A stretch of DNA of 11,521 nt, from IMG/VR virus record IMGVR_UViG_2657245124_000008. The stretch is one strand, 5' to 3'. The stretch comes from a virus. Taxonomy: Duplodnaviria > Heunggongvirae > Uroviricota > Caudoviricetes. Below the pieces are notes generated by a model that had not been told where the DNA came from, did no database searches, and worked only from the letters and a program-made list of their open reading frames with translations. How positions within the stretch are numbered: the first letter of the stretch is position 1; each line of letters begins with the position of its first letter. Made by a program: the position numbers and the translations under genes. Of this stretch, positions 2,621-11,521 are shown piece by piece.

Positions 2621-2732
2621 AACTGAAGTTGCCCTGAAAATGAAATTTTTTTGCACAACCGCAGAACTTTTCCGCAGGGCATCAGTCTTAATTAGTGCCA
2701 CTGCTTTTCTTTGATGTCCCCATTTTGTGGAG

Positions 2733-2776
2733 CCCATCAACCCCGCCATTTCGGTTCAAGGTTGATGGGTTTTTTG
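2733..2776 (+). terminator. rho-independent terminator-like hairpin in the ybjL/prophage junction region
   Basis: Stem CCCATCAACC (2733-2742) pairs with GGTTGATGGG (2760-2769) across a 17-nt loop, followed by TTTTTTG. The T-run is on the plus strand, so this most likely terminates ybjL. The same hairpin read on the minus strand may also terminate ogr. Confidence 0.5.
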
Positions 2777-2855
2777 TTGCCTGAAATTTATGTCGTTTAA
2801 AATCATGACGTTAGAAGCACTGTTTTTTAACGATGGCGACAAAATGGCGGCAGCG

Positions 2856-3074
2856 TCAAAGAGAGAGCGCCACCTGTCCTGATTTCATTGGATGCGGCTG
2901 AACCGGATTTGACTCTTTTGGCGTTGCAATCGAACGAACAAAAGTTTCATGGGTTACAAAAGTATGGCTGCAGTTAATATTCTGGCACTGGTTGTAACGC
3001 TCTTTGGTCAATGAAGATACCTGAAAACTGCTGCGAGTATGGGCGGCACTTCCACACAGTGGGCAAATCATCAT
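2856..3074 (-). CDS. ogr: Ogr/Delta-family zinc-finger late transcription activator (about 73 aa)
   Basis: Product MMICPLCGSAAHTRSS...KERYNQCQNINCSHTF... has the Cys-x2-Cys ... Cys-x4-Cys arrangement and KERY(H/N)QCQN(V/I)NC core of P2 Ogr. The six-frame ORF extends to 3167 only because no in-frame stop intervenes. The internal ATG at 3074 aligns with the P2 Ogr N-terminus and is preceded by GGGAGA. Confidence 0.75.
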   Translation of the reverse strand: MMICPLCGSAAHTRSSFQVSSLTKERYNQCQNINCSHTFVTHETFVRSIATPKESNPVQPHPMKSGQVALSL

Positions 3075-3110
3075 TTTTCGAGTTCTCCCATTTTTGCTAA
3101 ATTCACAATA

Positions 3111-3137
3111 ATGATACCGCATTATTCCATTTTGCAA
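3111..3137 (-). promoter_or_regulatory. candidate sigma70 promoter for ogr
   Basis: Read on the minus strand: -35-like TTGCAA (3132-3137) and -10 TATCAT (3111-3116) with a 15-16 nt spacer, about 35 nt upstream of the ogr ATG. This is a by-eye match only. Confidence 0.3.
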
Positions 3138-3163
3138 ACTTAAAAGTTCTCCATTGCGAAGAA

Positions 3164-4264
3164 TCATTCCATTTCGAAATCATCAATCTTCACTTCGAGT
3201 TCAATACTGGTTGTAAAACCGTTATCCGGGCTGACGGTATGTGTCAGAGTCGTAATGGTCCATTCCGCATCATCTATCGGCTGTTTAAAACCACTGACCT
3301 TCACAGGCATTTCCGTGTAGAGATCTGCCCGCCCTTCTGCCAGTTGTAGCGAAAATGACGCAACGCCGCGTTGCAGGCGTTCCCACTGCATTTTCGCCGC
3401 TCGTTCGGCGTTGCTCCGGTTGGCATAAGTGCGATTAAGTACCAGCACGTTTTCATCCGTACCCACCAGGTAATCGCCCTGCTTCGCTTCTGGCTCTTTC
3501 TTCTGCTTCTTAGTTCTGCGCTTACGCTTCACCGTGGTGCTTTCTTTCTTCGCAGGTTCGCGGGTATGCAACCAGCTGGCAATTACGCCCGTGTAGGCTC
3601 CGCGATCTGCCAGGGTAAATCGGTGACTGTCGCCGTCCTTGCGTGTGATAGTGATCACTGGCAGAGGTTTACCAGTGACGCTTTTGCCCTGCCCCTGCCG
3701 GATGAATAACAGATTGCCATTTTTCACCGACGCGATGGCACCGTATTGTCGCGCCAGCCGCATCAGAAAACTGCCGTCACTCTCATTAGTCTGGTCTATA
3801 TGCTCCACGGGCTTATCCGACAGGTCTTTACCCAGTGCCATCTTCAGCTTGTGCCGCGCGGCTATTTCCTTCACCACTTCCCCGACGGTGGTCTTATGCC
3901 ACGATTTTTCACGGCGGGTATTCAGCGTTTCCCGAAAATCAGCACTTCGCGCCCGGATAGTCAGGCGGTCCGGTGCGCCAGTGTGTTCAATCTCGTCCAC
4001 TGTGAATGCCCCTTTCGGGAAAAGCAGCTGCCCCTTCCAGCCCAGCGCCAGCGTAATGACCGCACCACGGCGCGGCAGCACGATTTTTCCGTCAGCGTCA
4101 TCCAACTCCAGATCAAGCTGGTCCGCTTCAAAGCCCCGGTTATCCGTCAGCGTCAAACTCATCAGGCGGTTATCCAGCACTGTGGTGATATCCCTGCCCT
4201 CAATACTGATGCTGAATGCGGGAGTTTTGTTGCCTTTGTTAAGCAGTTCTGAGCTGAAATTCAC
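3164..4264 (-). CDS. D: P2 gpD-like tail protein (366 aa)
   Basis: 366-aa product with recognisable similarity to P2 gpD, sitting immediately after U and before ogr as in P2. The start is GTG at 4264, overlapping the U stop (GTGA). Confidence 0.85.
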   Translation of the reverse strand: MNFSSELLNKGNKTPAFSISIEGRDITTVLDNRLMSLTLTDNRGFEADQLDLELDDADGKIVLPRRGAVITLALGWKGQLLFPKGAFTVDEIEHTGAPDRLTIRARSADFRETLNTRREKSWHKTTVGEVVKEIAARHKLKMALGKDLSDKPVEHIDQTNESDGSFLMRLARQYGAIASVKNGNLLFIRQGQGKSVTGKPLPVITITRKDGDSHRFTLADRGAYTGVIASWLHTREPAKKESTTVKRKRRTKKQKKEPEAKQGDYLVGTDENVLVLNRTYANRSNAERAAKMQWERLQRGVASFSLQLAEGRADLYTEMPVKVSGFKQPIDDAEWTITTLTHTVSPDNGFTTSIELEVKIDDFEME

Positions 4265-4746
4265 GACAGCAGCCCTCCCACCGTTTTACTGATATCGCTT
4301 AAGGCAGACGTTGCCGTGTCCTGCAGATTATTCAGTTGCGCACTGAGATCACCGAACATATCGGACAGGGATTCATCCACTCGTTTGAGCGACAGGGTGA
4401 ACTCAATCCGGCGCGGCATACCGTCGCGGAAAAACTCCGTTTTAGTCTGATTCAGTCCCTCAATCACATACATGCCGTAAATCGTGCCGCTGCCTTCAAT
4501 CAGGGGCCATGCTTTCCCCTGTTCTGCCATCTGCTCCAGTGCCAGCAACGACAGCCTGCCGCCTGTTATCTCCGGCATAAGAACACCGGAAAGCGTCAGC
4601 ATGTCGTTTTCCGGTCCCAGAAACTGCGTGGACGGACGTCGGTTTACCCGACTGTTTGCCGCATGTCGCCAGCTGCGTTGATACTGCAGTTCCTGATACG
4701 GAACGGTGCGCAGCATAAACACGTACAATCCCAGCACCATCATCAT
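4261..4746 (-). CDS. U: P2 gpU-like tail protein (161 aa)
   Basis: 161-aa product, similar in size and sequence to P2 gpU (about 159 aa from memory). Its ATG overlaps the T stop (ATGA), indicating translational coupling. Confidence 0.85.
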   Translation of the reverse strand: MMMVLGLYVFMLRTVPYQELQYQRSWRHAANSRVNRRPSTQFLGPENDMLTLSGVLMPEITGGRLSLLALEQMAEQGKAWPLIEGSGTIYGMYVIEGLNQTKTEFFRDGMPRRIEFTLSLKRVDESLSDMFGDLSAQLNNLQDTATSALSDISKTVGGLLS

Positions 4747-7700
4747 GCGTCGTATCCCCCCTGATCGCTGTAGTTACTCCTGGCTTTTGCCTTCAGCCTG
4801 CGTTCACGTTCATCAAGCTGGCGTGCCACCTCCCGCGCAATATCCTGCGCACTTTGTCCTGGCTGCGTCTGAATGATGATCTGCGTCGGTGCCTCAATCC
4901 GTTGAACGAGCGGCACAGTGGCTGCGCGACTCACAATTGCTTCTCCACCTTTCGCGGGAAGTGCCAAAGGGTGCAACGGTGGAAGCTCTGCTGGCGCGGC
5001 AGCAACGCCCATCATTCCGGCAACAACGGCAGCCAGTGCAGCTGTATTTCTCCGGCTGGTCACATTTGCCGGGCCGTTAACAATTTCCGGCCCGTTTTCA
5101 CCGACGATGCCAAACTGCCCGCGCGGGATATACCCGCCGCTGTCATACATCCCCGCAAAGCCATATCCCCATGATGGAAAACCACCCGATGGCATCATCA
5201 CTTTGCCGTCTGCATTCACCGTCGCAGGTTGCTGACGCGTCACGCTTTCCGGTAGTTTTGCCTTTGCGGCCTCTTTACTGACAATGCCGAGTTTCTCCAG
5301 CAACCAGGAAACGCCGGATTTCAGGGAGTCCAGCGGATGCATGACCATATTCAGCCCTTCCGCCAGAGCCTCCCCGAATCGTCGCCCCATTGCCGCTGCA
5401 CTCTGCAGTTCGGCAGAGGTCGACTTAACGGGCGTCAGCAGGTCAGTAAACCAGCCCCACAGCGCCTGCACTTTGTCGCCAATCCACTGGAACACAGGCT
5501 TAAGTGGTTCGAATGCGGCACTGACGGGACCTGCCGCCGCTTTGAATCCCTCCACCACGCCACCGAGAAATGCGGTGATGGGTTGCCAGTATTTCCAGAC
5601 AACCAGCGCCACGCCTGCCAGTGCAGTAACCACTAGACCTATCGGACTGAGCAGAGCACCTAACAGACCAGATATGGCATACAGGGCAACGCGCAGCATC
5701 GCCAGTGGACCAGATGCCAGTACTCGCTGCACCGTACCTGCGGCGGTCAGTCCACCGCGCAGTACCGCCAGAGGATTCATAAACATCACAGCAACCGCAC
5801 GTAAACCGGATAATCCAGACCGCAAAAGTGCAACCGGCGCACCTGCAACAGTTTTCAGGACATTTCCCGTCAGTGATGCCGTACGGCGCAAAGACGACAA
5901 CGGCGCAGTAAGTAAACCCGCTGCGTTACCCGATAAAGCAAGCCCGTGTCGCAGCAGTGCCAGTGGTGCGCCAGCCAGCCAGGACAACGCGCTGCTGGTT
6001 CGTGTTACTGCTGCCGTAACGGAAGGTAACGTTTTGATGCCCAGCACAGAGAATCCCAGACGGATGACTGCCAGCGGCCCCAGCACTGCAGCCAGCGCCA
6101 CAGCCAAGGTGCCGAGGCCGACGGTAACCGCAGCCACAATAGCGGCTACTTTCATCAGTGTGCCCGTCAGTTCCGGGTTAGCTTCCACCCAGCGACGCAA
6201 CGCTCCCGTAACGCTTTTCACCGTGTACAGAATATCCATCAGCGGCTGGCGCAGCGTTTCGCCCAGGCTGCTGAAGGTATTCTGCGCTCCGGTTTTAACC
6301 AGCAACCACTGAGCAGAAAGTGAGTCCTTGTTGATGTCGGATTCTTTCTGCATGGAACCGAGCGCATCATTGCCCGCTGTCAGTTTTAGCTGGCGCTGTA
6401 GTTCCGGCAGGTTGTTTGCCAGTTTCGCCGCGTCATCGCCAAACTCTTTACCAAACAACATGGTCATGGCAGACAGACGCTTGTCCTGCGGCAGTGCGTT
6501 CACCTTCTCCAGCACACGCTGGATAGTTCCCATCGCATCCTTCGTCATCTGCTTTTCAATCACTTCAGGATTGAGTTTCAGCAGATTCATCCCTTCAAAG
6601 AAACTCTTGCTTTGCATGGTGGCAATGGACAATTCACGCACCATCGCGTTTGCTGCACTGGCTGCAACCTCCGGCGCAGCGCCCAGTGTCAGAAAGGTGG
6701 AACCCAGTGCCGCCGCTTTACGATAATCCAGACGGTCAGCCACACCGCCCAGACGTTGCATCACATCAATGATGTCCGCCCCTTTCGACATGGCGTTATC
6801 ATCCAGATAGTTCAGCGCATCGCCGAGCTGTTCAATATTGCGGGTAGGTATTTTGTAGAGCTGGGCGATTTTCCCCAGACTTTCTGACAGTTCATCCGCT
6901 GGCAGCTCAAAGGCTGTTGCCGCCTTTGCTGCCGTACTGGCGAAGGCCAGCAGGTCACGTTTCTGGTCTTCCCAGCTGTCGTCAGGGTCTGCGACGTTCA
7001 TGCGCGCACCACCTTCAACCAGTGCAGCGAAGTCCACCGCACCGTTTTCCATCGGCAACTGTTCGCTGGCAGCCTTGATGGCATCCTGCATTTCATAAAA
7101 ACGTGCAGTACGGTTTCCATTATCGTCACGCAGACCATTGACCTGCTTTGCCACACCTTTCATGGCATCTTCCATGCTGGTATAGCTTTTTACTGCCGCC
7201 ATCACTGGCGTCCCCATTGCCAGCCCTGCAGCCGTGGTAGTGGCTCCGGCTCCTGCAATACGATCGCGCACCTCCAGCGAACGGGCATAACTGGCACGCG
7301 CCGCATTCATCCTGCGCTGAGCTTCACCCAGTCGCTTCAGCCGCGCCTCCTGTTTCGACAATTCCTGGTTATAACGTGATGTTTCACGGGCTAAACGGGC
7401 AGTTGCTCCCGCATCATCTTTCGCAGAAATTCCCGCCCGGTACAGTTCTGCACGCACAAGCGCCGTTTGCTTCTGCAAATATTTTTGTTGTTCTTCCAGG
7501 CGTTGGACTGCCAGCGTTTGCCGACCTAAAGCCACAAGGTGCCGTTGTGATGGTTGTTCCATCGCCTCCAGCTCAGAGCTAAGCAAATTAGCCTTCTGTC
7601 TGGCATAGTTCAGCCTGTCGCCTAACTTCTTGTTATCGGCCTGCAGCTTGCGAAATTTTTCCAGGCTGTTACCCGCCTGATTGAGTTGCTTTAATGCGTC

Positions 7701-7820
7701 ACGGGAGTTTCTGATTGCACCAGCCAGCTCTTTCGAACTGGCCTGTGCAGCACGGAATGGGCGGGTGAGTTTGTCAACCGCATTAAGAATGACCTGCAGG
7801 CGCAGGTTGTTATCACTCAT
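4743..7820 (-). CDS. T: tail tape measure protein (gpT-like, 1025 aa)
   Basis: Long ORF with a coiled-coil-like, Q/R/K/E/A-rich N-terminal region, a central Ala/Gly/Leu-rich hydrophobic repeat block, and a position between E/E' and U. All are typical of tape measure proteins. Confidence 0.9.
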   Translation of the reverse strand: MSDNNLRLQVILNAVDKLTRPFRAAQASSKELAGAIRNSRDALKQLNQAGNSLEKFRKLQADNKKLGDRLNYARQKANLLSSELEAMEQPSQRHLVALGRQTLAVQRLEEQQKYLQKQTALVRAELYRAGISAKDDAGATARLARETSRYNQELSKQEARLKRLGEAQRRMNAARASYARSLEVRDRIAGAGATTTAAGLAMGTPVMAAVKSYTSMEDAMKGVAKQVNGLRDDNGNRTARFYEMQDAIKAASEQLPMENGAVDFAALVEGGARMNVADPDDSWEDQKRDLLAFASTAAKAATAFELPADELSESLGKIAQLYKIPTRNIEQLGDALNYLDDNAMSKGADIIDVMQRLGGVADRLDYRKAAALGSTFLTLGAAPEVAASAANAMVRELSIATMQSKSFFEGMNLLKLNPEVIEKQMTKDAMGTIQRVLEKVNALPQDKRLSAMTMLFGKEFGDDAAKLANNLPELQRQLKLTAGNDALGSMQKESDINKDSLSAQWLLVKTGAQNTFSSLGETLRQPLMDILYTVKSVTGALRRWVEANPELTGTLMKVAAIVAAVTVGLGTLAVALAAVLGPLAVIRLGFSVLGIKTLPSVTAAVTRTSSALSWLAGAPLALLRHGLALSGNAAGLLTAPLSSLRRTASLTGNVLKTVAGAPVALLRSGLSGLRAVAVMFMNPLAVLRGGLTAAGTVQRVLASGPLAMLRVALYAISGLLGALLSPIGLVVTALAGVALVVWKYWQPITAFLGGVVEGFKAAAGPVSAAFEPLKPVFQWIGDKVQALWGWFTDLLTPVKSTSAELQSAAAMGRRFGEALAEGLNMVMHPLDSLKSGVSWLLEKLGIVSKEAAKAKLPESVTRQQPATVNADGKVMMPSGGFPSWGYGFAGMYDSGGYIPRGQFGIVGENGPEIVNGPANVTSRRNTAALAAVVAGMMGVAAAPAELPPLHPLALPAKGGEAIVSRAATVPLVQRIEAPTQIIIQTQPGQSAQDIAREVARQLDERERRLKAKARSNYSDQGGYDA

Positions 7821-8249
7821 CGTTGGCCCCGCTTCTCTGAATCGCTTTATACCGCCATTCCAGCACTTCGGTCAGCGGCATAACGTCAGTAACGGATGGC
7901 GGCCAGTGAAAAATGGTGGCGATATCTGCCACCAGATCGTCAACCGTCAGGCTGTCGGTAAACCGGCAAGCACCGACTTCTTCAACAAAAAAGTGACAAC
8001 CTCAACCGACATGGCTGTGAGATCTGCCGGGTCCATCTCTGCGATTTCCTGTGCAGTCAGTGCCGGACTGGAGATGCGGGGGATCACGGTCATCATCGCG
8101 TTCACATCCATATCCATAATGGCCTGCAGGCGTGTGCCGCGCAGCGCACCAGACTGCGGTTTACGCAACACAATTTCGGTAATTTCTGTTTTACCGCGCA
8201 TGATGGGGGTATCCAGTTGAATGGTCTTTTCAGTCTGTTTATCGCTCAT
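7813..8249 (-). CDS. E+E': gpE+E' tail assembly chaperone made by programmed -1 frameshift (about 144 aa)
   Basis: Translating by hand from the slippery site in the -1 frame gives an open frame running to a TGA at 7813-7815 (…VEEVGACRFTDSLTVDDLVADIATIFHWPPSVTDVMPLTEVLEWRYKAIQRSGANDE*). It overlaps the T start codon at 7820. The total length is close to the 142 aa I recall for P2 E+E'. Confidence 0.65.
7947..8249 (-). CDS. E: tail assembly chaperone gpE (100 aa, zero-frame product)
   Basis: Small ORF between FII and T. Its 3' end contains the slippery heptamer T TTT TTG. The ATG at 8249 is preceded by an AGGAC Shine-Dalgarno-like sequence. Confidence 0.8.
   Translation of the reverse strand: MSDKQTEKTIQLDTPIMRGKTEITEIVLRKPQSGALRGTRLQAIMDMDVNAMMTVIPRISSPALTAQEIAEMDPADLTAMSVEVVTFLLKKSVLAGLPTA
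7986..7992 (-). other. -1 programmed ribosomal frameshift slippery heptamer TTTTTTG
   Basis: The minus strand reads GTC ACT TTT TTG TTG AAG (V T F L L K) in the E frame. The heptamer T TTT TTG matches the P2 E/E' and lambda G/GT-type slippery sequence. Confidence 0.7.
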
Positions 8250-8303
8250 TTTGTTGTCCTGTAAATTAGGTTCTGGCGCGGCATTCCGCGCCGTTCAGAT
8301 ACA

Positions 8304-8819
8304 TCAGAGGCCGAGGGCGTTGCGGTGCGCTTCCATCAGGTCCACACCGTCCACAATTTCCACCATGTTGATAAGGTCCACTTCATAGAGCACCTCACCA
8401 TTGATGGTCAGCTTCGCGTAGCTGTTGGTACTGGTAACTTTGGTGGTGTTGCTTTCGCCCGTCTTCCACTCGCCGGAATCCACTTCTTTGTGACGTCCAC
8501 GCACGACAAGCTCCACGGCCTGCACTTCCCCAGTATCGTCACGCTGGATAGAGCCGGTAAAGCGCAGCTGGATGCCATCCACCGTGGATTTGCCCATCTG
8601 CTTAAACAGCAGCAGTTCAGTACCACCAATGGAAAATTCTGTATCCAGTGCACTGTCATCCAGTCCCAGATCCACATCCACCGCCCCCGGCATACCGCCG
8701 CCGCGATACTTCTCATATTTGCGGGTGAATTTCGGCAGCGTCAGCGACTCAACGATCCCCTGCCAGTTGTTCCCGTCGTTAAACAAGTTCAGATGTTTTA
8801 ATTTGCGTGGTAAAGCCAT
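8304..8819 (-). CDS. FII: tail tube protein (gpFII-like, 171 aa)
   Basis: 171-aa product similar in size and sequence to P2 FII (about 172 aa from memory), directly downstream of the sheath gene. Confidence 0.88.
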   Translation of the reverse strand: MALPRKLKHLNLFNDGNNWQGIVESLTLPKFTRKYEKYRGGGMPGAVDVDLGLDDSALDTEFSIGGTELLLFKQMGKSTVDGIQLRFTGSIQRDDTGEVQAVELVVRGRHKEVDSGEWKTGESNTTKVTSTNSYAKLTINGEVLYEVDLINMVEIVDGVDLMEAHRNALGL

Positions 8820-10143: not shown

Positions 10144-10566
10144 TCAGGGGGATTCATTGCTCTTATTTGCCGGAAATTTTCTATACATGGTAGAAACGCC
10201 TACATCAAAAATCAGTGCAATACGCTGTCTTGATTCTCCGGCCTCGAGTAAACGCCCAATCTGTGCCCACTGTTCGGTGGTCAACTTAGGACGGCGTCCA
10301 CCTACTCTGCCTTTAGCACGAGCTGCAGCCAGCCCTGCCCTAGTACGTTCGACAATAAACTCTCGCTCCATTTCAGCCAGGGCACCCATCACATGAAAGA
10401 AGAAGCGCCCCATAGGCGTACTCGTATCGATGCTATCCGTCAGGCTCCGGAAGTTAACACCTTTCTCCCGCAGTTCCTCCACTAACCCAACAAGATGTCG
10501 CATGCTGCGACCGAGGCGGTCACGCTTTCAGACCACCAGCGTATCGCCTTCAGATATGCATCCTTG
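10144..10566 (-). pseudogene. Pin/Hin/Gin-family serine DNA invertase, N-terminally decayed
   Basis: The 119-aa ORF (10144-10503) matches the C-terminal two-thirds of Pin/Hin-type invertases (MRHLVGLVEELREKGVNFRSLTDSIDTSTPMGRFFFHVMGALAEMERE..., with the C-terminal helix-turn-helix). Upstream in the same frame, homology continues as ...EGDTLVV*KRDRLGRSM, with a TGA (10528-10530) where the conserved Trp of GDTLVVWKLDRLGRS sits. A TAG follows at 10567-10569 and no recognisable catalytic N-terminal domain is found in any frame. Confidence 0.8.
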
Positions 10567-10666
10567 CTAAACTTAGATCGCCGGTCACCAACTAAGCATG
10601 CAGTATGCGTTATGTTTTTTATTGCTCCCAGGGTAATGTGTCCACTAACTAAACAAGGAGATAGTG

Positions 10667-11218
10667 ATGCTGCATACTATGAATTTCACGGTGCCCGTAA
10701 ATCAGTCCACCGTTAACGCTTTAATTAGCAATTGCCTTGGAGCTATCAATCAGGGGGCGACTGAGTTAAACATTTACATTTCCAGTCCGGGCGGTGACCT
10801 CGTTGCAGGTTTTACTGCTTATCACTTTCTAAAGGCCCTACCAATCCCAGTAAAGACCCATAACCTTAGCAATGTTGAATCAGTCGCTAATATCATTTTT
10901 CTTGCAGGGTCTGAACGTAAGGCGAATCCTGGGAGTCGGTTCTTACTGCATCCTTTTCACTGGGGCTTGATGGGCCCAAGCGTGGATCACTCACGCGTCA
11001 GTGAGTGGGGCGCGTGTCTCAATAATGACCTGGAGCGTTTTGTCGATATTTTGGAGAGTCAGATTGAGCTCAGTAAGAGCCGCAATGAGTGGAAGGAGGT
11101 TATCTCCGCCGCCACCATAGCCAATGCCTCCACAGCTCTGGATTGGGGGATGGTTCACGAGGTTGCCGCCGCCACTTACCCGCAGGCACCCGGCACATAC
11201 TGGTGGATTAACTGTTAA
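10667..11218 (+). CDS. stand-alone ClpP-like (S14-type) serine peptidase, about 183 aa
   Basis: AAGGAG Shine-Dalgarno (10655-10660) lies 6 nt before the ATG at 10667 (the ORF track begins at an in-frame GTG at 10664). The product aligns by eye to the ClpP core: IYISSPGG versus ClpP YINSPGG, Ser72 in ESVAN versus ClpP GQAASMG, and His95 in LLHP versus ClpP MIHQP. It lacks the ClpP N-terminal axial segment and is oriented against the late operon. Confidence 0.7.
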   Translation: MLHTMNFTVPVNQSTVNALISNCLGAINQGATELNIYISSPGGDLVAGFTAYHFLKALPIPVKTHNLSNVESVANIIFLAGSERKANPGSRFLLHPFHWGLMGPSVDHSRVSEWGACLNNDLERFVDILESQIELSKSRNEWKEVISAATIANASTALDWGMVHEVAAATYPQAPGTYWWINC

Positions 11219-11377
11219 CATAATTACCTCTCAAATTTAAATTGGGCAGAGATGCCAGCATCCAGGCTCGCGCCTGGACGATTGTCTGATGATGAAAAGT
11301 GCAGTTTAATCTGTGGCTGGATTATCTGGATGCACTGGAGCTGGTTAATACCTCCAGTGCGCCAGATATTGAATGGC

Positions 11378-11521
11378 CTACTCCTCCGGCAGTTCAGGCC
11401 AGATGACATCCGGTGCGGTGCTGGTATCTGTTGCCGTCACAGCGTCGATATAATCCAGCACAACGTTAAGTCGGGTAGTTTCTTCTTGCGTCAGTTTGCG
11501 CCCGGCCTGCAGCTTTAACTG
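11378..11521 (-). CDS. tail fibre assembly protein (gpG/Tfa-like), C-terminal 47 codons; gene continues beyond the window
   Basis: The minus-strand frame entering from the window edge is open and reads ...RKLTQEETTRLNVVLDYIDAVTATDTSTAPDVIWPELPEE, ending at a TAG (11378-11380). This resembles the conserved C-terminus of tail-fibre-assembly proteins (…D.S.AP.I.WP..P), and the position matches gene G in P2 order. Confidence 0.55.
   Translation of the reverse strand, partial: QLKLQAGRKLTQEETTRLNVVLDYIDAVTATDTSTAPDVIWPELPEE

What the first reader, a model, noticed from the sequence alone, without database searches (positions are those of the whole stretch)
7813..8249. Directly visible E/E' programmed -1 frameshift with the E' frame overlapping the tape-measure start
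The slippery heptamer T TTT TTG (7986-7992, minus strand) sits near the end of E. The -1 frame is open from there to a TGA at 7813-7815, just past the T start codon at 7820. This reproduces the conserved tail-chaperone frameshift of P2 E/E+E' and lambda G/GT and argues this tail module is functional, not decayed.
Basis: partly seen in the sequence, partly recalled or inferred. Interest (0 to 1): 0.45.

Follow-up and report, generated by a model that had tools for sequence, protein, structure and literature searches.

The report
P2-type tail chaperone programmed frameshift
This is the well-known "slippery" site at which ribosomes of P2-like phages occasionally slip back one base to make a longer tail-assembly chaperone (E+E'), here sitting intact in an ordinary E. 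coli prophage; it is real but already known.

Summary
On the minus strand, E (7947-8249, 100 aa) carries T TTT TTG at 7992-7986 in the X XXY YYZ register. The -1 frame is open from there to TGA 7815-7813, which overlaps the tape-measure ATG (7820) by 8 nt (ATGAGTGA). The 145-aa trans-frame product aligns without gaps through the junction to the annotated P2 E+E' (48% identity, E 5e-50). Pfam PF10109 hits the E part, and PF06528 (P2 GpE) hits only the -1-frame part.

In 79 of 80 diverse bacterial loci the E' homolog is in the -1 frame behind an in-register T TTT TTN. The codon supplying the first T encodes nine different amino acids but always ends in T. E' shows a coding-type substitution pattern.

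The window is 100% identical to E. coli 1297KP and belongs to a ~34-kb P2/186-like prophage beside rybB. The same segment occurs in 978 of 5,426 complete E. coli genomes. RefSeq annotates E' as a separate 39-aa gene, which I read as an annotation convention and not biology.

Verdict: already known, low interest.

Side leads:
- an SD-like GAGGU(G) 5 nt upstream of the heptamer;
- two candidate hairpins downstream of it;

The parts
7947..8249 (-). Gene E (zero frame), 100-aa tail assembly chaperone; ATG 8249, TGA 7949-7947
   Evidence: ORF list and translation. PF10109 Phage_TAC_7 E 2.4e-18 over residues 9-88. phrog_103 'tail protein' E 3.8e-42. RefSeq WP_001281016.1 'phage tail assembly protein'.
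7986..7992 (-). Slippery heptamer T TTT TTG in X XXY YYZ register with E
   Evidence: Sequence and frame arithmetic. Same heptamer and register as the annotated P2 frameshift site. In-register T TTT TTN in 79/80 genome loci and TTTTTTG in 79/80 IMG/VR relatives. The codon carrying the first T encodes 9 different amino acids but always ends in T.
7813..7986 (-). E' : -1-frame extension (57 codons plus TGA 7815-7813), read after G7986 is decoded twice
   Evidence: Translation. PF06528 Phage_P2_GpE E 2.9e-18 only in this frame. phrog_1756 covers residues 85-145 across the junction. Diversity by codon position 0.177/0.099/0.376. Conserved ADIA[TV]IFHW and WR..A..RSG motifs.
7813..8249 (-). Whole E+E' trans-frame coding span; predicted 145-aa product ...VEVVTFL|VEEVGACRF...
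   Evidence: BLASTP to P2 E+E': 48% identity, 139 aa, no gaps, E 5e-50.
8002..8004 (-). TGA closing the -1 frame three codons upstream of the heptamer, so a shift can join E to E' only between 8001 and 7947
   Evidence: Three-frame translation; m1open coordinate.
7813..7820 (-). ATGAGTGA: 8-nt overlap of the T start codon (7820-7818) with the E' stop codon (7815-7813)
   Evidence: Same arrangement in P2 (ATGAGTAA). ATGAGTGA in 77/80 IMG/VR relatives.
4743..7820 (-). Gene T, tape measure protein (1025 aa), the presumed client of E and E+E'
   Evidence: PF10145 E 2e-18; TIGR01760 E 1.9e-93.
8304..8819 (-). Gene FII, tail tube protein, immediately upstream of E
   Evidence: PF04985 E 1.2e-59.
7998..8003 (-). 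SD-like GAGGUU (GAGGUG in most relatives), ending 5 nt before the heptamer; candidate upstream modulator, role unproven
   Evidence: Anti-SD duplex energy of the 15 nt upstream: non-redundant set -7.22 against -4.45 +/- 0.46 kcal/mol for synonymous resampling with each locus's own codon usage, 0/400. Window itself -6.8.
7960..7979 (-). Candidate 7-bp hairpin AAGUCGG[UGCUUG]CCGGUUU beginning 6 nt after the heptamer; clade-specific, unproven
   Evidence: 92% of cells paired in 43 enterobacterial sequences with one-sided changes only; 40% in other lineages; absent in P2.

Best explanation
This is the E/E+E' tail-assembly-chaperone cassette of a P2/186-like prophage. Most ribosomes translate E (100 aa) and stop at 7949-7947. 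A minority slip back one base when tRNA-Phe and tRNA-Leu occupy UUU UUG of U UUU UUG (7992-7986). They re-pair on UUU UUU and continue in the -1 frame for 57 codons, making a 145-aa E+E' that ends 8 nt inside gene T.

By analogy with lambda G/GT, the shared E part would coat the tape measure protein T. The rarer E' domain would recruit the tube protein FII, so the fixed slip rate sets the E:E+E' ratio needed for tail assembly.

Shown here: the sequence anatomy, homology to P2 E and E', -1-frame purifying selection, and near-universal conservation of the in-register heptamer. Inferred: that slipping occurs in this strain, its efficiency, and the protein roles.
For: - Anatomy at the exact coordinates.
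- PF10109 hits the zero-frame part and PF06528 hits only the -1-frame part.
- The alignment to P2 E+E' is ungapped through the junction, 48% identity, E 5e-50. P2's record annotates a joined CDS and a '-1 translational frameshift' site at the homologous TTTTTTG.
- Gene order FI-FII-E-E'-T-U-D-ogr is as in P2.
- In 79/80 loci from Enterobacterales, Pseudomonas, Cupriavidus, Chromobacterium and others, E' lies in the -1 frame behind an in-register T TTT TTN.
- The first T is conserved across 9 different amino acids.
- The E' extension keeps its length in most of 78 loci (54-59 aa) and its motifs, while the zero-frame tail varies from 5 to 22 aa.
- Diversity is highest at third codon positions of the -1 frame in E'. 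In the dual-coding stretch the -1-frame pattern dominates.
- PMC3091744 summarises that in P2 the -1 shift at TTTTTTG yields the 91-aa E and 142-aa E+E' from one start, and that the site is conserved in P2-like Burkholderia phages.
- PMC5009743 describes the lambda G/GT chaperone model.
Against: No expression data exist for this strain. U UUU UUG-type sites are not the most shift-prone in E. coli (PMC5009743). No validated stimulator was found. The SD-like element sits 5-7 nt upstream, outside the 9-14 nt reported for -1 stimulation. The nearby hairpin shows no compensatory changes. RefSeq annotates E' as a separate 39-aa CDS starting at GTG 7932.
Confidence: 0.93

Rival explanations
1. E' is an independent small gene, as RefSeq annotates it: a 39-aa 'GpE family phage tail protein' initiated at GTG 7932, with no frameshift needed.
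For: PGAP annotation WP_000763311.1 at 7813-7932. A Val/Met codon (GTG/ATG) is common at this position in homologs. The 39-aa piece alone matches PF06528 over the full profile.
Against: - The SD match before GTG 7932 is weak (-3.0 kcal/mol).
- Some homologs have Ile, Gln, Tyr or Ala codons there that cannot initiate.
- The -1-frame residues between the heptamer and 7932 are conserved with P2 (VEEVGACRFTDSLTVDDL against VAELGAVTFPKNLSVDDL).
- phrog_1756 spans residues 85-145.
- The -1-frame codon pattern dominates in the overlap.
- It does not explain why the heptamer and its register are conserved in 79/80 loci.
- The P2 record and the literature describe a frameshift product.
Confidence: 0.03
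2. The -1-frame product arises mainly from RNA polymerase slippage on the T6 run (loss of one U or gain of two in the mRNA), not from ribosomal slippage.
For: The site is a homopolymer run. Conservation of the first T across amino acids also lengthens the run, so it does not by itself separate the two mechanisms.
Against: Productive bacterial transcriptional slippage is described for runs of about 9 A or T (PMC5009743), and here the run is 6. The run is always in the X XXY YYZ register, and the Z base is never C: G 62, A 12, T 1. The P2 site is annotated and cited as a translational frameshift.
Confidence: 0.03
3. E and E' are one gene broken by a frameshift mutation or a homopolymer sequencing error (pseudogene or artefact).
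For: Homopolymer runs are indel-prone. One relative (L040) has E and E' in a single frame.
Against: The two-frame arrangement is identical in P2 and in 79/80 diverse genome loci, 79/80 viral contigs and 978 E. coli genomes. L040 is the exception: an upstream deletion removes conserved residues.
Confidence: 0.01

Closest known systems
Bacteriophage P2 E / E+E' (NC_001895, P2p26/P2p25; Christie et al. 2002, cited in PMC3091744)
   Same: Homologous proteins (48% identity, ungapped through the junction). Same TTTTTTG heptamer, register and junction (FL|V). Same position between FII and T, and the same 8-nt overlap of the E' stop with the T start.
   Different: E here is 100 aa against 91 aa, because the zero-frame tail after the heptamer is 12 codons instead of 5. 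E+E' is 145 aa against 142 aa. T is longer: 1025 aa here, against a 2448-nt T gene in P2. The enterobacterial clade has a candidate hairpin 6 nt downstream that P2 lacks. The prophage has 186/Fels-2-type control genes (CI, CII, Fil).
Fels-2 / Escherichia phage Cartapus / Klebsiella phage 4LV2017 group of P2-like phages
   Same: 90-99% protein identity in E and 96-97% DNA identity over 7700-8400, with the same gene order.
   Different: Essentially none in the cassette. Their records also annotate E and E' as separate genes.
Lambda G / GT tail assembly chaperones (Levin 1993; Xu, Hendrix, Duda 2004, 2013, 2014, as reviewed in PMC5009743)
   Same: Two products from one start by -1 frameshifting near the end of the upstream ORF. 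Located between the major tail gene and the tape measure gene. The chaperone logic and fixed ratio also match.
   Different: No detectable sequence relationship: only PF10109 and PF06528 hit. Lambda is a siphovirus, so the partner there is gpV, whereas here it would be the tube protein of a contractile tail.
E. coli dnaX -1 frameshift cassette (A AAA AAG with an upstream SD and a downstream stem-loop)
   Same: Tandem-slippage heptamer. An SD-like element lies upstream and a hairpin may lie a few nt downstream.
   Different: The SD-like element ends 5-7 nt from the heptamer, not the 9-14 nt reported for -1 stimulation. The heptamer differs. Neither flanking element is validated here.

Membership tests
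P2-type gpE / gpE+E' tail chaperone frameshift cassette | Upstream ORF homologous to P2 gpE (Pfam PF10109 Phage_TAC_7) | tested here: met
   E 2.4e-18, 66.4 bits against a cutoff of 25, residues 9-88; BLASTP to P2.
P2-type gpE / gpE+E' tail chaperone frameshift cassette | Downstream segment in the -1 frame homologous to P2 E' (Pfam PF06528 Phage_P2_GpE) | tested here: met
   E 2.9e-18, 65.5 bits against a cutoff of 23, residues 107-143 of the trans-frame product only.
P2-type gpE / gpE+E' tail chaperone frameshift cassette | X XXY YYZ slippery heptamer (T TTT TTG) in the zero-frame register, inside the stretch where both frames are open | tested here: met
   7992-7986; the only such heptamer between the -1-frame stop (8004-8002) and the E stop.
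P2-type gpE / gpE+E' tail chaperone frameshift cassette | Location between the tail tube gene (FII) and the tape measure gene (T), with E' ending at the T start | tested here: met
   FII 8304-8819, T 4743-7820, 8-nt overlap.
P2-type gpE / gpE+E' tail chaperone frameshift cassette | E' lacks a convincing translation start of its own | tested here: inconclusive
   The only sizeable candidate is GTG 7932, with a weak anti-SD match (-3.0 kcal/mol). E's own SD is also weak (-4.0), so this criterion does not discriminate.
P2-type gpE / gpE+E' tail chaperone frameshift cassette | Trans-frame protein actually made at a low fixed ratio and required for tail assembly | not testable with these tools
   Needs a reporter, mass spectrometry or genetics. 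For P2 itself I could check only a secondary citation and the record annotation.
Lambda G/GT family (sequence membership) | Sequence similarity to the lambda gpG / gpT Pfam families | tested here: not met
   A Pfam scan at E <= 0.01 returns only PF10109 and PF06528. The cassette works like G/GT but is not a sequence member.
P2-like (Peduoviridae) prophage late tail operon | Gene order FI-FII-E-E'-T-U-D followed by ogr at the prophage end | tested here: met
   Pfam hits for sheath, tube, GpU, GPD and Ogr_Delta in that order. Matches the P2 map.

The most novel reading that the evidence does not exclude
The P2-type E/E' site may not be a bare heptamer, as the literature states for P2 and Burkholderia phages. 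It may carry conserved cis elements that tune the shift or local translation:

- an SD-like GAGGUG ending only 5 nt upstream, enriched well beyond synonymous-codon expectation, at a spacing that fits neither the known -1 optimum (9-14 nt) nor the +1 optimum (3 nt);
- a clade-specific hairpin 6 nt downstream;
- a hairpin with some double-sided changes inside the ADIATIF codons of E'.
Probability: 0.2. Interest if true: 0.3.

Novelty: already known. Interest (0 to 1): 0.1.

Why it matters
As biology it adds nothing new. It is one more intact copy of a textbook recoding site that is present in about a fifth of complete E. coli genomes.

Its practical value is for annotation. RefSeq and many phage records split E+E' into a 'tail assembly protein' and a stand-alone 39-aa 'GpE family' gene, so the real 145-aa product is missing from protein databases.

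The comparative set assembled here gives a clean test bed for whether this low-efficiency site has flanking modulators. It comprises the in-register heptamer in 79/80 loci, the SD-like element and the two hairpins.

Tried and rejected
- The primary paper (Christie et al. 2002, PMC135442) is not held. The P2 facts therefore rest on the GenBank annotation and on PMC3091744.
- A sequence search of the PDB with E+E' found nothing at E <= 1, and NCBIfam has no model for it. I did not run structure prediction, because it would not change the verdict.
- Rfam found only RybB in the window, so there is no known frameshift element. No tRNA genes were found.
- Hairpin GUCGGU..ACCGAC, 8 nt downstream (the MFE), is less well kept (81%) than the alternative AAGUCGG/CCGGUUU (92%). 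Neither shows compensatory changes, so I do not claim a stimulator.
- The GCCG/CGGU hairpin abutting the heptamer is paired in only about 72% of cells and is too close to act as a classical stimulator.
- My first automatic heptamer picker took a wrong T-run in at least one locus (L011). Some of the long (82-93 codon) extensions may be such mis-picks. Later analyses used the tblastn-anchored positions.
- The IMG/VR scan returned only close relatives (79-97% identical), so it does not replicate the SD-like signal independently.
- The PADLOC scan of the ClpP-like ORF found no hits.

Full report
**1. Observation**

Read on the minus strand, the window has an ORF from ATG 8249 to TGA 7949-7947 (100 aa). 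The string TTTTTTG lies at 7992-7986. Base 7992 is the third base of an E codon, so the zero frame reads AC-T TTT TTG, the X XXY YYZ register needed for tandem -1 slippage.

The -1 frame is closed by TGA 8004-8002 three codons before the heptamer. It is then open to TGA 7815-7813. The 1025-aa ORF 4743-7820 starts at ATG 7820, so the E' stop and the T start share 8 nt, ATGAGTGA.

TTTTTTG occurs only once on the minus strand of the window. A -1 frame open for 58 or more codons is seen in 6-8% of comparable positions or shuffles. The open frame alone would be weak evidence, so the case rests on homology and conservation.

**2. Identity**

The trans-frame product is MSDK...VEVVTFL|VEEVGACRF...SGANDE, 145 aa. 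Pfam PF10109 (Phage_TAC_7) matches residues 9-88. PF06528 (Phage_P2_GpE) matches residues 107-143, which lie only in the -1-frame part. Both score far above their curated cut-offs.

PHROGs gives phrog_103 for the E part and phrog_1756 for residues 85-145, which spans the junction.

The P2 reference record annotates E, a joined E+E' CDS and a 'site of -1 translational frameshift'. Rebuilding P2 E+E' from that record gives TTTTTTG in the same register. BLASTP against the window's product gives 48% identity over 139 residues, with no gap through the junction and E 5e-50. P2 also has the same 8-nt overlap with T (ATGAGTAA).

The neighbours, in P2 order, are sheath FI, tube FII, E/E', tape measure T, U, D and ogr.

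**3. Source and frequency**

The window is 100% identical to E. coli strain 1297KP. RefSeq names 7947-8249 'phage tail assembly protein'. It annotates 7813-7932 as a separate 39-aa 'GpE family phage tail protein' that starts at GTG 7932.

The prophage is about 34 kb. It carries 186/Fels-2-type control genes (CI, CII, Fil) and a full set of head, lysis, baseplate and replication genes.

The E/E' segment is present at 95% identity or more in 978 of 5,426 complete E. coli genomes. It is 96-97% identical to sequenced Klebsiella and Escherichia P2-like phages.

**4. Comparative evidence for the mechanism**

A scan of one genome per species gave 80 loci from Enterobacterales, Pseudomonas, Cupriavidus, Chromobacterium, Marinobacter and others.

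- Both halves could be placed in 78 of these loci plus the window and P2, a set of 80. In 79 of the 80, the E' homolog is in the -1 frame relative to E, and an in-register T TTT TTN heptamer lies in the overlap.
- Among 75 distinct site sequences, the codon supplying the first T encodes nine different amino acids (T, G, N, S, L, Y, F, I, V) yet always ends in T. The last base is G 62, A 12, T 1 and never C.
- The -1 extension keeps its length (54-59 aa in most) and its motifs (ADIA[TV]IFHW, WR..A..RSG). The zero-frame tail after the heptamer varies from 5 to 22 codons.
- In 33 distinct close relatives, nucleotide diversity in the E'-only part is 0.177, 0.099 and 0.376 at -1-frame codon positions 1, 2 and 3. 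That is the signature of a translated frame. In the dual-coding stretch the -1-frame pattern also dominates.
- Among 80 IMG/VR relatives, 79 keep TTTTTTG in register and 77 keep the 57-codon extension and ATGAGTGA.

**5. How it most likely works**

Established knowledge says that in P2 a -1 shift at TTTTTTG yields the 91-aa E and 142-aa E+E' from one start, and that the site is conserved in P2-like phages (PMC3091744). From memory, not checked here, Christie et al. 2002 measured roughly 10% frameshifting and showed that E' is essential. That paper is not held.

The lambda G/GT model has the shared part bind the tape measure protein. The rare -1-frame domain recruits the major tail subunit, and the ratio matters for assembly (PMC5009743).

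By inference, E coats T here, and E' brings in the tube protein FII. The slip rate at 7992-7986 sets the ratio.

**6. Rivals**

- Independent initiation of E' at GTG 7932, the RefSeq model. The SD match there is weak. Several homologs have non-initiator codons at that position. The -1-frame sequence upstream of it is conserved with P2. The model also leaves the conserved heptamer unexplained.
- Transcriptional slippage. The run is only six T. The review describes productive slippage on runs of about nine. The register is invariant.
- Pseudogene or sequencing error. Excluded by the conservation data.

**7. Flanking signals (side results, not claims)**

(a) The 15 nt upstream contain GAGGUU, which is GAGGUG in most relatives and AAGGUG in P2. 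It is complementary to the 16S 3' end and ends 5 nt before the heptamer.
- Against synonymous resampling with each locus's own codon usage, the mean anti-SD duplex energy in a non-redundant set of 33 is -7.22, compared with -4.45 +/- 0.46 kcal/mol (0/400).
- 39% of these sites are at or below -8 kcal/mol, compared with 2.7% of background windows.
- The review gives 9-14 nt as the stimulatory spacing for -1 shifts and 3 nt for +1, so this spacing is non-canonical and the role is open.

(b) A 7-bp hairpin AAGUCGG[UGCUUG]CCGGUUU begins 6 nt after the heptamer. It is kept in 92% of cells in 43 enterobacterial sequences, but only through one-sided changes. It is absent in P2 and in other lineages. 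This agrees with reports of no structure in P2.

(c) A terminator-like hairpin UGGUGGC-N7-GCCACCA followed by U5 lies at 7934-7914, inside the LVADIATIF codons.
- Across 69 sequences it is paired in 84% of cells, against 78.5 +/- 0.9% in shuffles (0/500).
- It has 34 double-change cells against 17.6. One is a doubly synonymous G-C to C-G swap in L042.
- Partners slid by +/-3 columns still pair in 64-71% of cells, so the result is suggestive only.

**8. 'Functional, not decayed'**

The FETUD-ogr block is intact and equal in length to that of a 97%-identical relative.

Immediately upstream, RefSeq flags the invertase (10144-10557) as a pseudogene, with the N-terminus missing and an internal stop. 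It also flags both tail-fibre-assembly genes as pseudogenes.

A relative carries an intact invertase plus a gp53-like fibre tip and yfdK at that place. The window instead has a 183-aa ClpP-like ORF (PF00574, E 1.1e-12).

The frameshift cassette therefore shows that the chaperone pair is under selection across the lineage. It does not show that this prophage can make infectious particles.

**9. Verdict**

The feature is a member of a well-characterised system and is already known. Interest is low. The main residual value is the mis-split annotation and the flanking-signal leads.

Noticed in passing
window 7813-7932 (-): RefSeq/PGAP annotates E' as a stand-alone 39-aa CDS from GTG 7932 (WP_000763311.1 'GpE family phage tail protein') and not as a joined E+E' CDS. 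Many phage records do the same, so the 145-aa product is missing from protein sets.
   Followed up: yes
window 7998-8003 (-), and 75 homologous sites: SD-like GAGGU(G) ending 5 nt upstream of the heptamer. It is enriched beyond synonymous-codon expectation (-7.22 against -4.45 +/- 0.46 kcal/mol, 0/400), at a spacing outside the 9-14 nt reported for -1 stimulation.
   Followed up: partly
window 7914-7934 (-): Terminator-like hairpin UGGUGGC-N7-GCCACCA followed by U5, inside the E' codons LVADIATIF. It starts 51 nt after the heptamer and 12 nt after the E stop. It is kept in many lineages with some double-sided changes (V..T, A..V and M..V codon pairs; a synonymous G-C to C-G swap in L042), but the codon-periodic slid controls are nearly as good.
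   Followed up: partly
window 7960-7979 (-): Candidate hairpin AAGUCGG[UGCUUG]CCGGUUU 6 nt after the heptamer. It is conserved in the enterobacterial clade (92% of cells paired) and absent in P2 and other lineages.
   Followed up: partly
window 8275-8292 (-): GC-rich hairpin GGCGCGG-AAUG-CCGCGCC in the 54-nt FII-E intergenic spacer, with no U tract after it (centroid -15.4 kcal/mol). It could set the expression step-down between the abundant sheath and tube proteins and E/T/U/D, or stabilise the upstream transcript. P2 has a different sequence there.
   Followed up: no
window 10144-11521: The invertible tail-fibre segment is decayed. The invertase is a pseudogene (N-terminus missing, internal stop) and both tail-fibre-assembly genes are fragments. 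A 183-aa ClpP-like ORF (10667-11218, +; PF00574 E 1.1e-12; closest PHROG 'head maturation protease'; no PADLOC hit) sits where relatives have a gp53-like fibre tip plus yfdK. This arrangement covers at least 80% of the query in 22 complete E. coli genomes.
   Followed up: partly
window 2700-2778 (+); L004 27546-27572: A full-length RybB sRNA gene (105 bits) lies between ybjL and ogr. Its 3' end, ATGGGTTTTTTGTT, and about 13 further bases (24 of 27 identical) are repeated at the far end of the prophage beside rcdA. This looks like the attachment-site repeat of a ~34-kb P2/186-like prophage integrated at rybB.
   Followed up: partly
L040 1498-1917 (Candidatus Symbiopectobacterium): This is the only locus of 80 in which E and E' are in one frame. 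A deletion just upstream of the T-run removes the conserved ..GKVVG.. residues and fuses the frames, so only a constitutive E+E'-like protein could be made. It is probably a decaying prophage in a symbiont.
   Followed up: partly
window 2856-3167 (-): The mechanical ORF for ogr is 103 aa, but the Ogr_Delta domain starts at residue 35 and RefSeq starts the gene at 3074 (72 aa, as in P2). The longer ORF is an artefact of taking the first start codon.
   Followed up: yes
one locus among L086-L165 (IMG/VR relatives): One close relative has the -1 frame closed after 13 codons, which truncates E'. Another has TTTTTTT in place of TTTTTTG. These are possible decayed copies and I did not identify which loci they are.
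   Followed up: no
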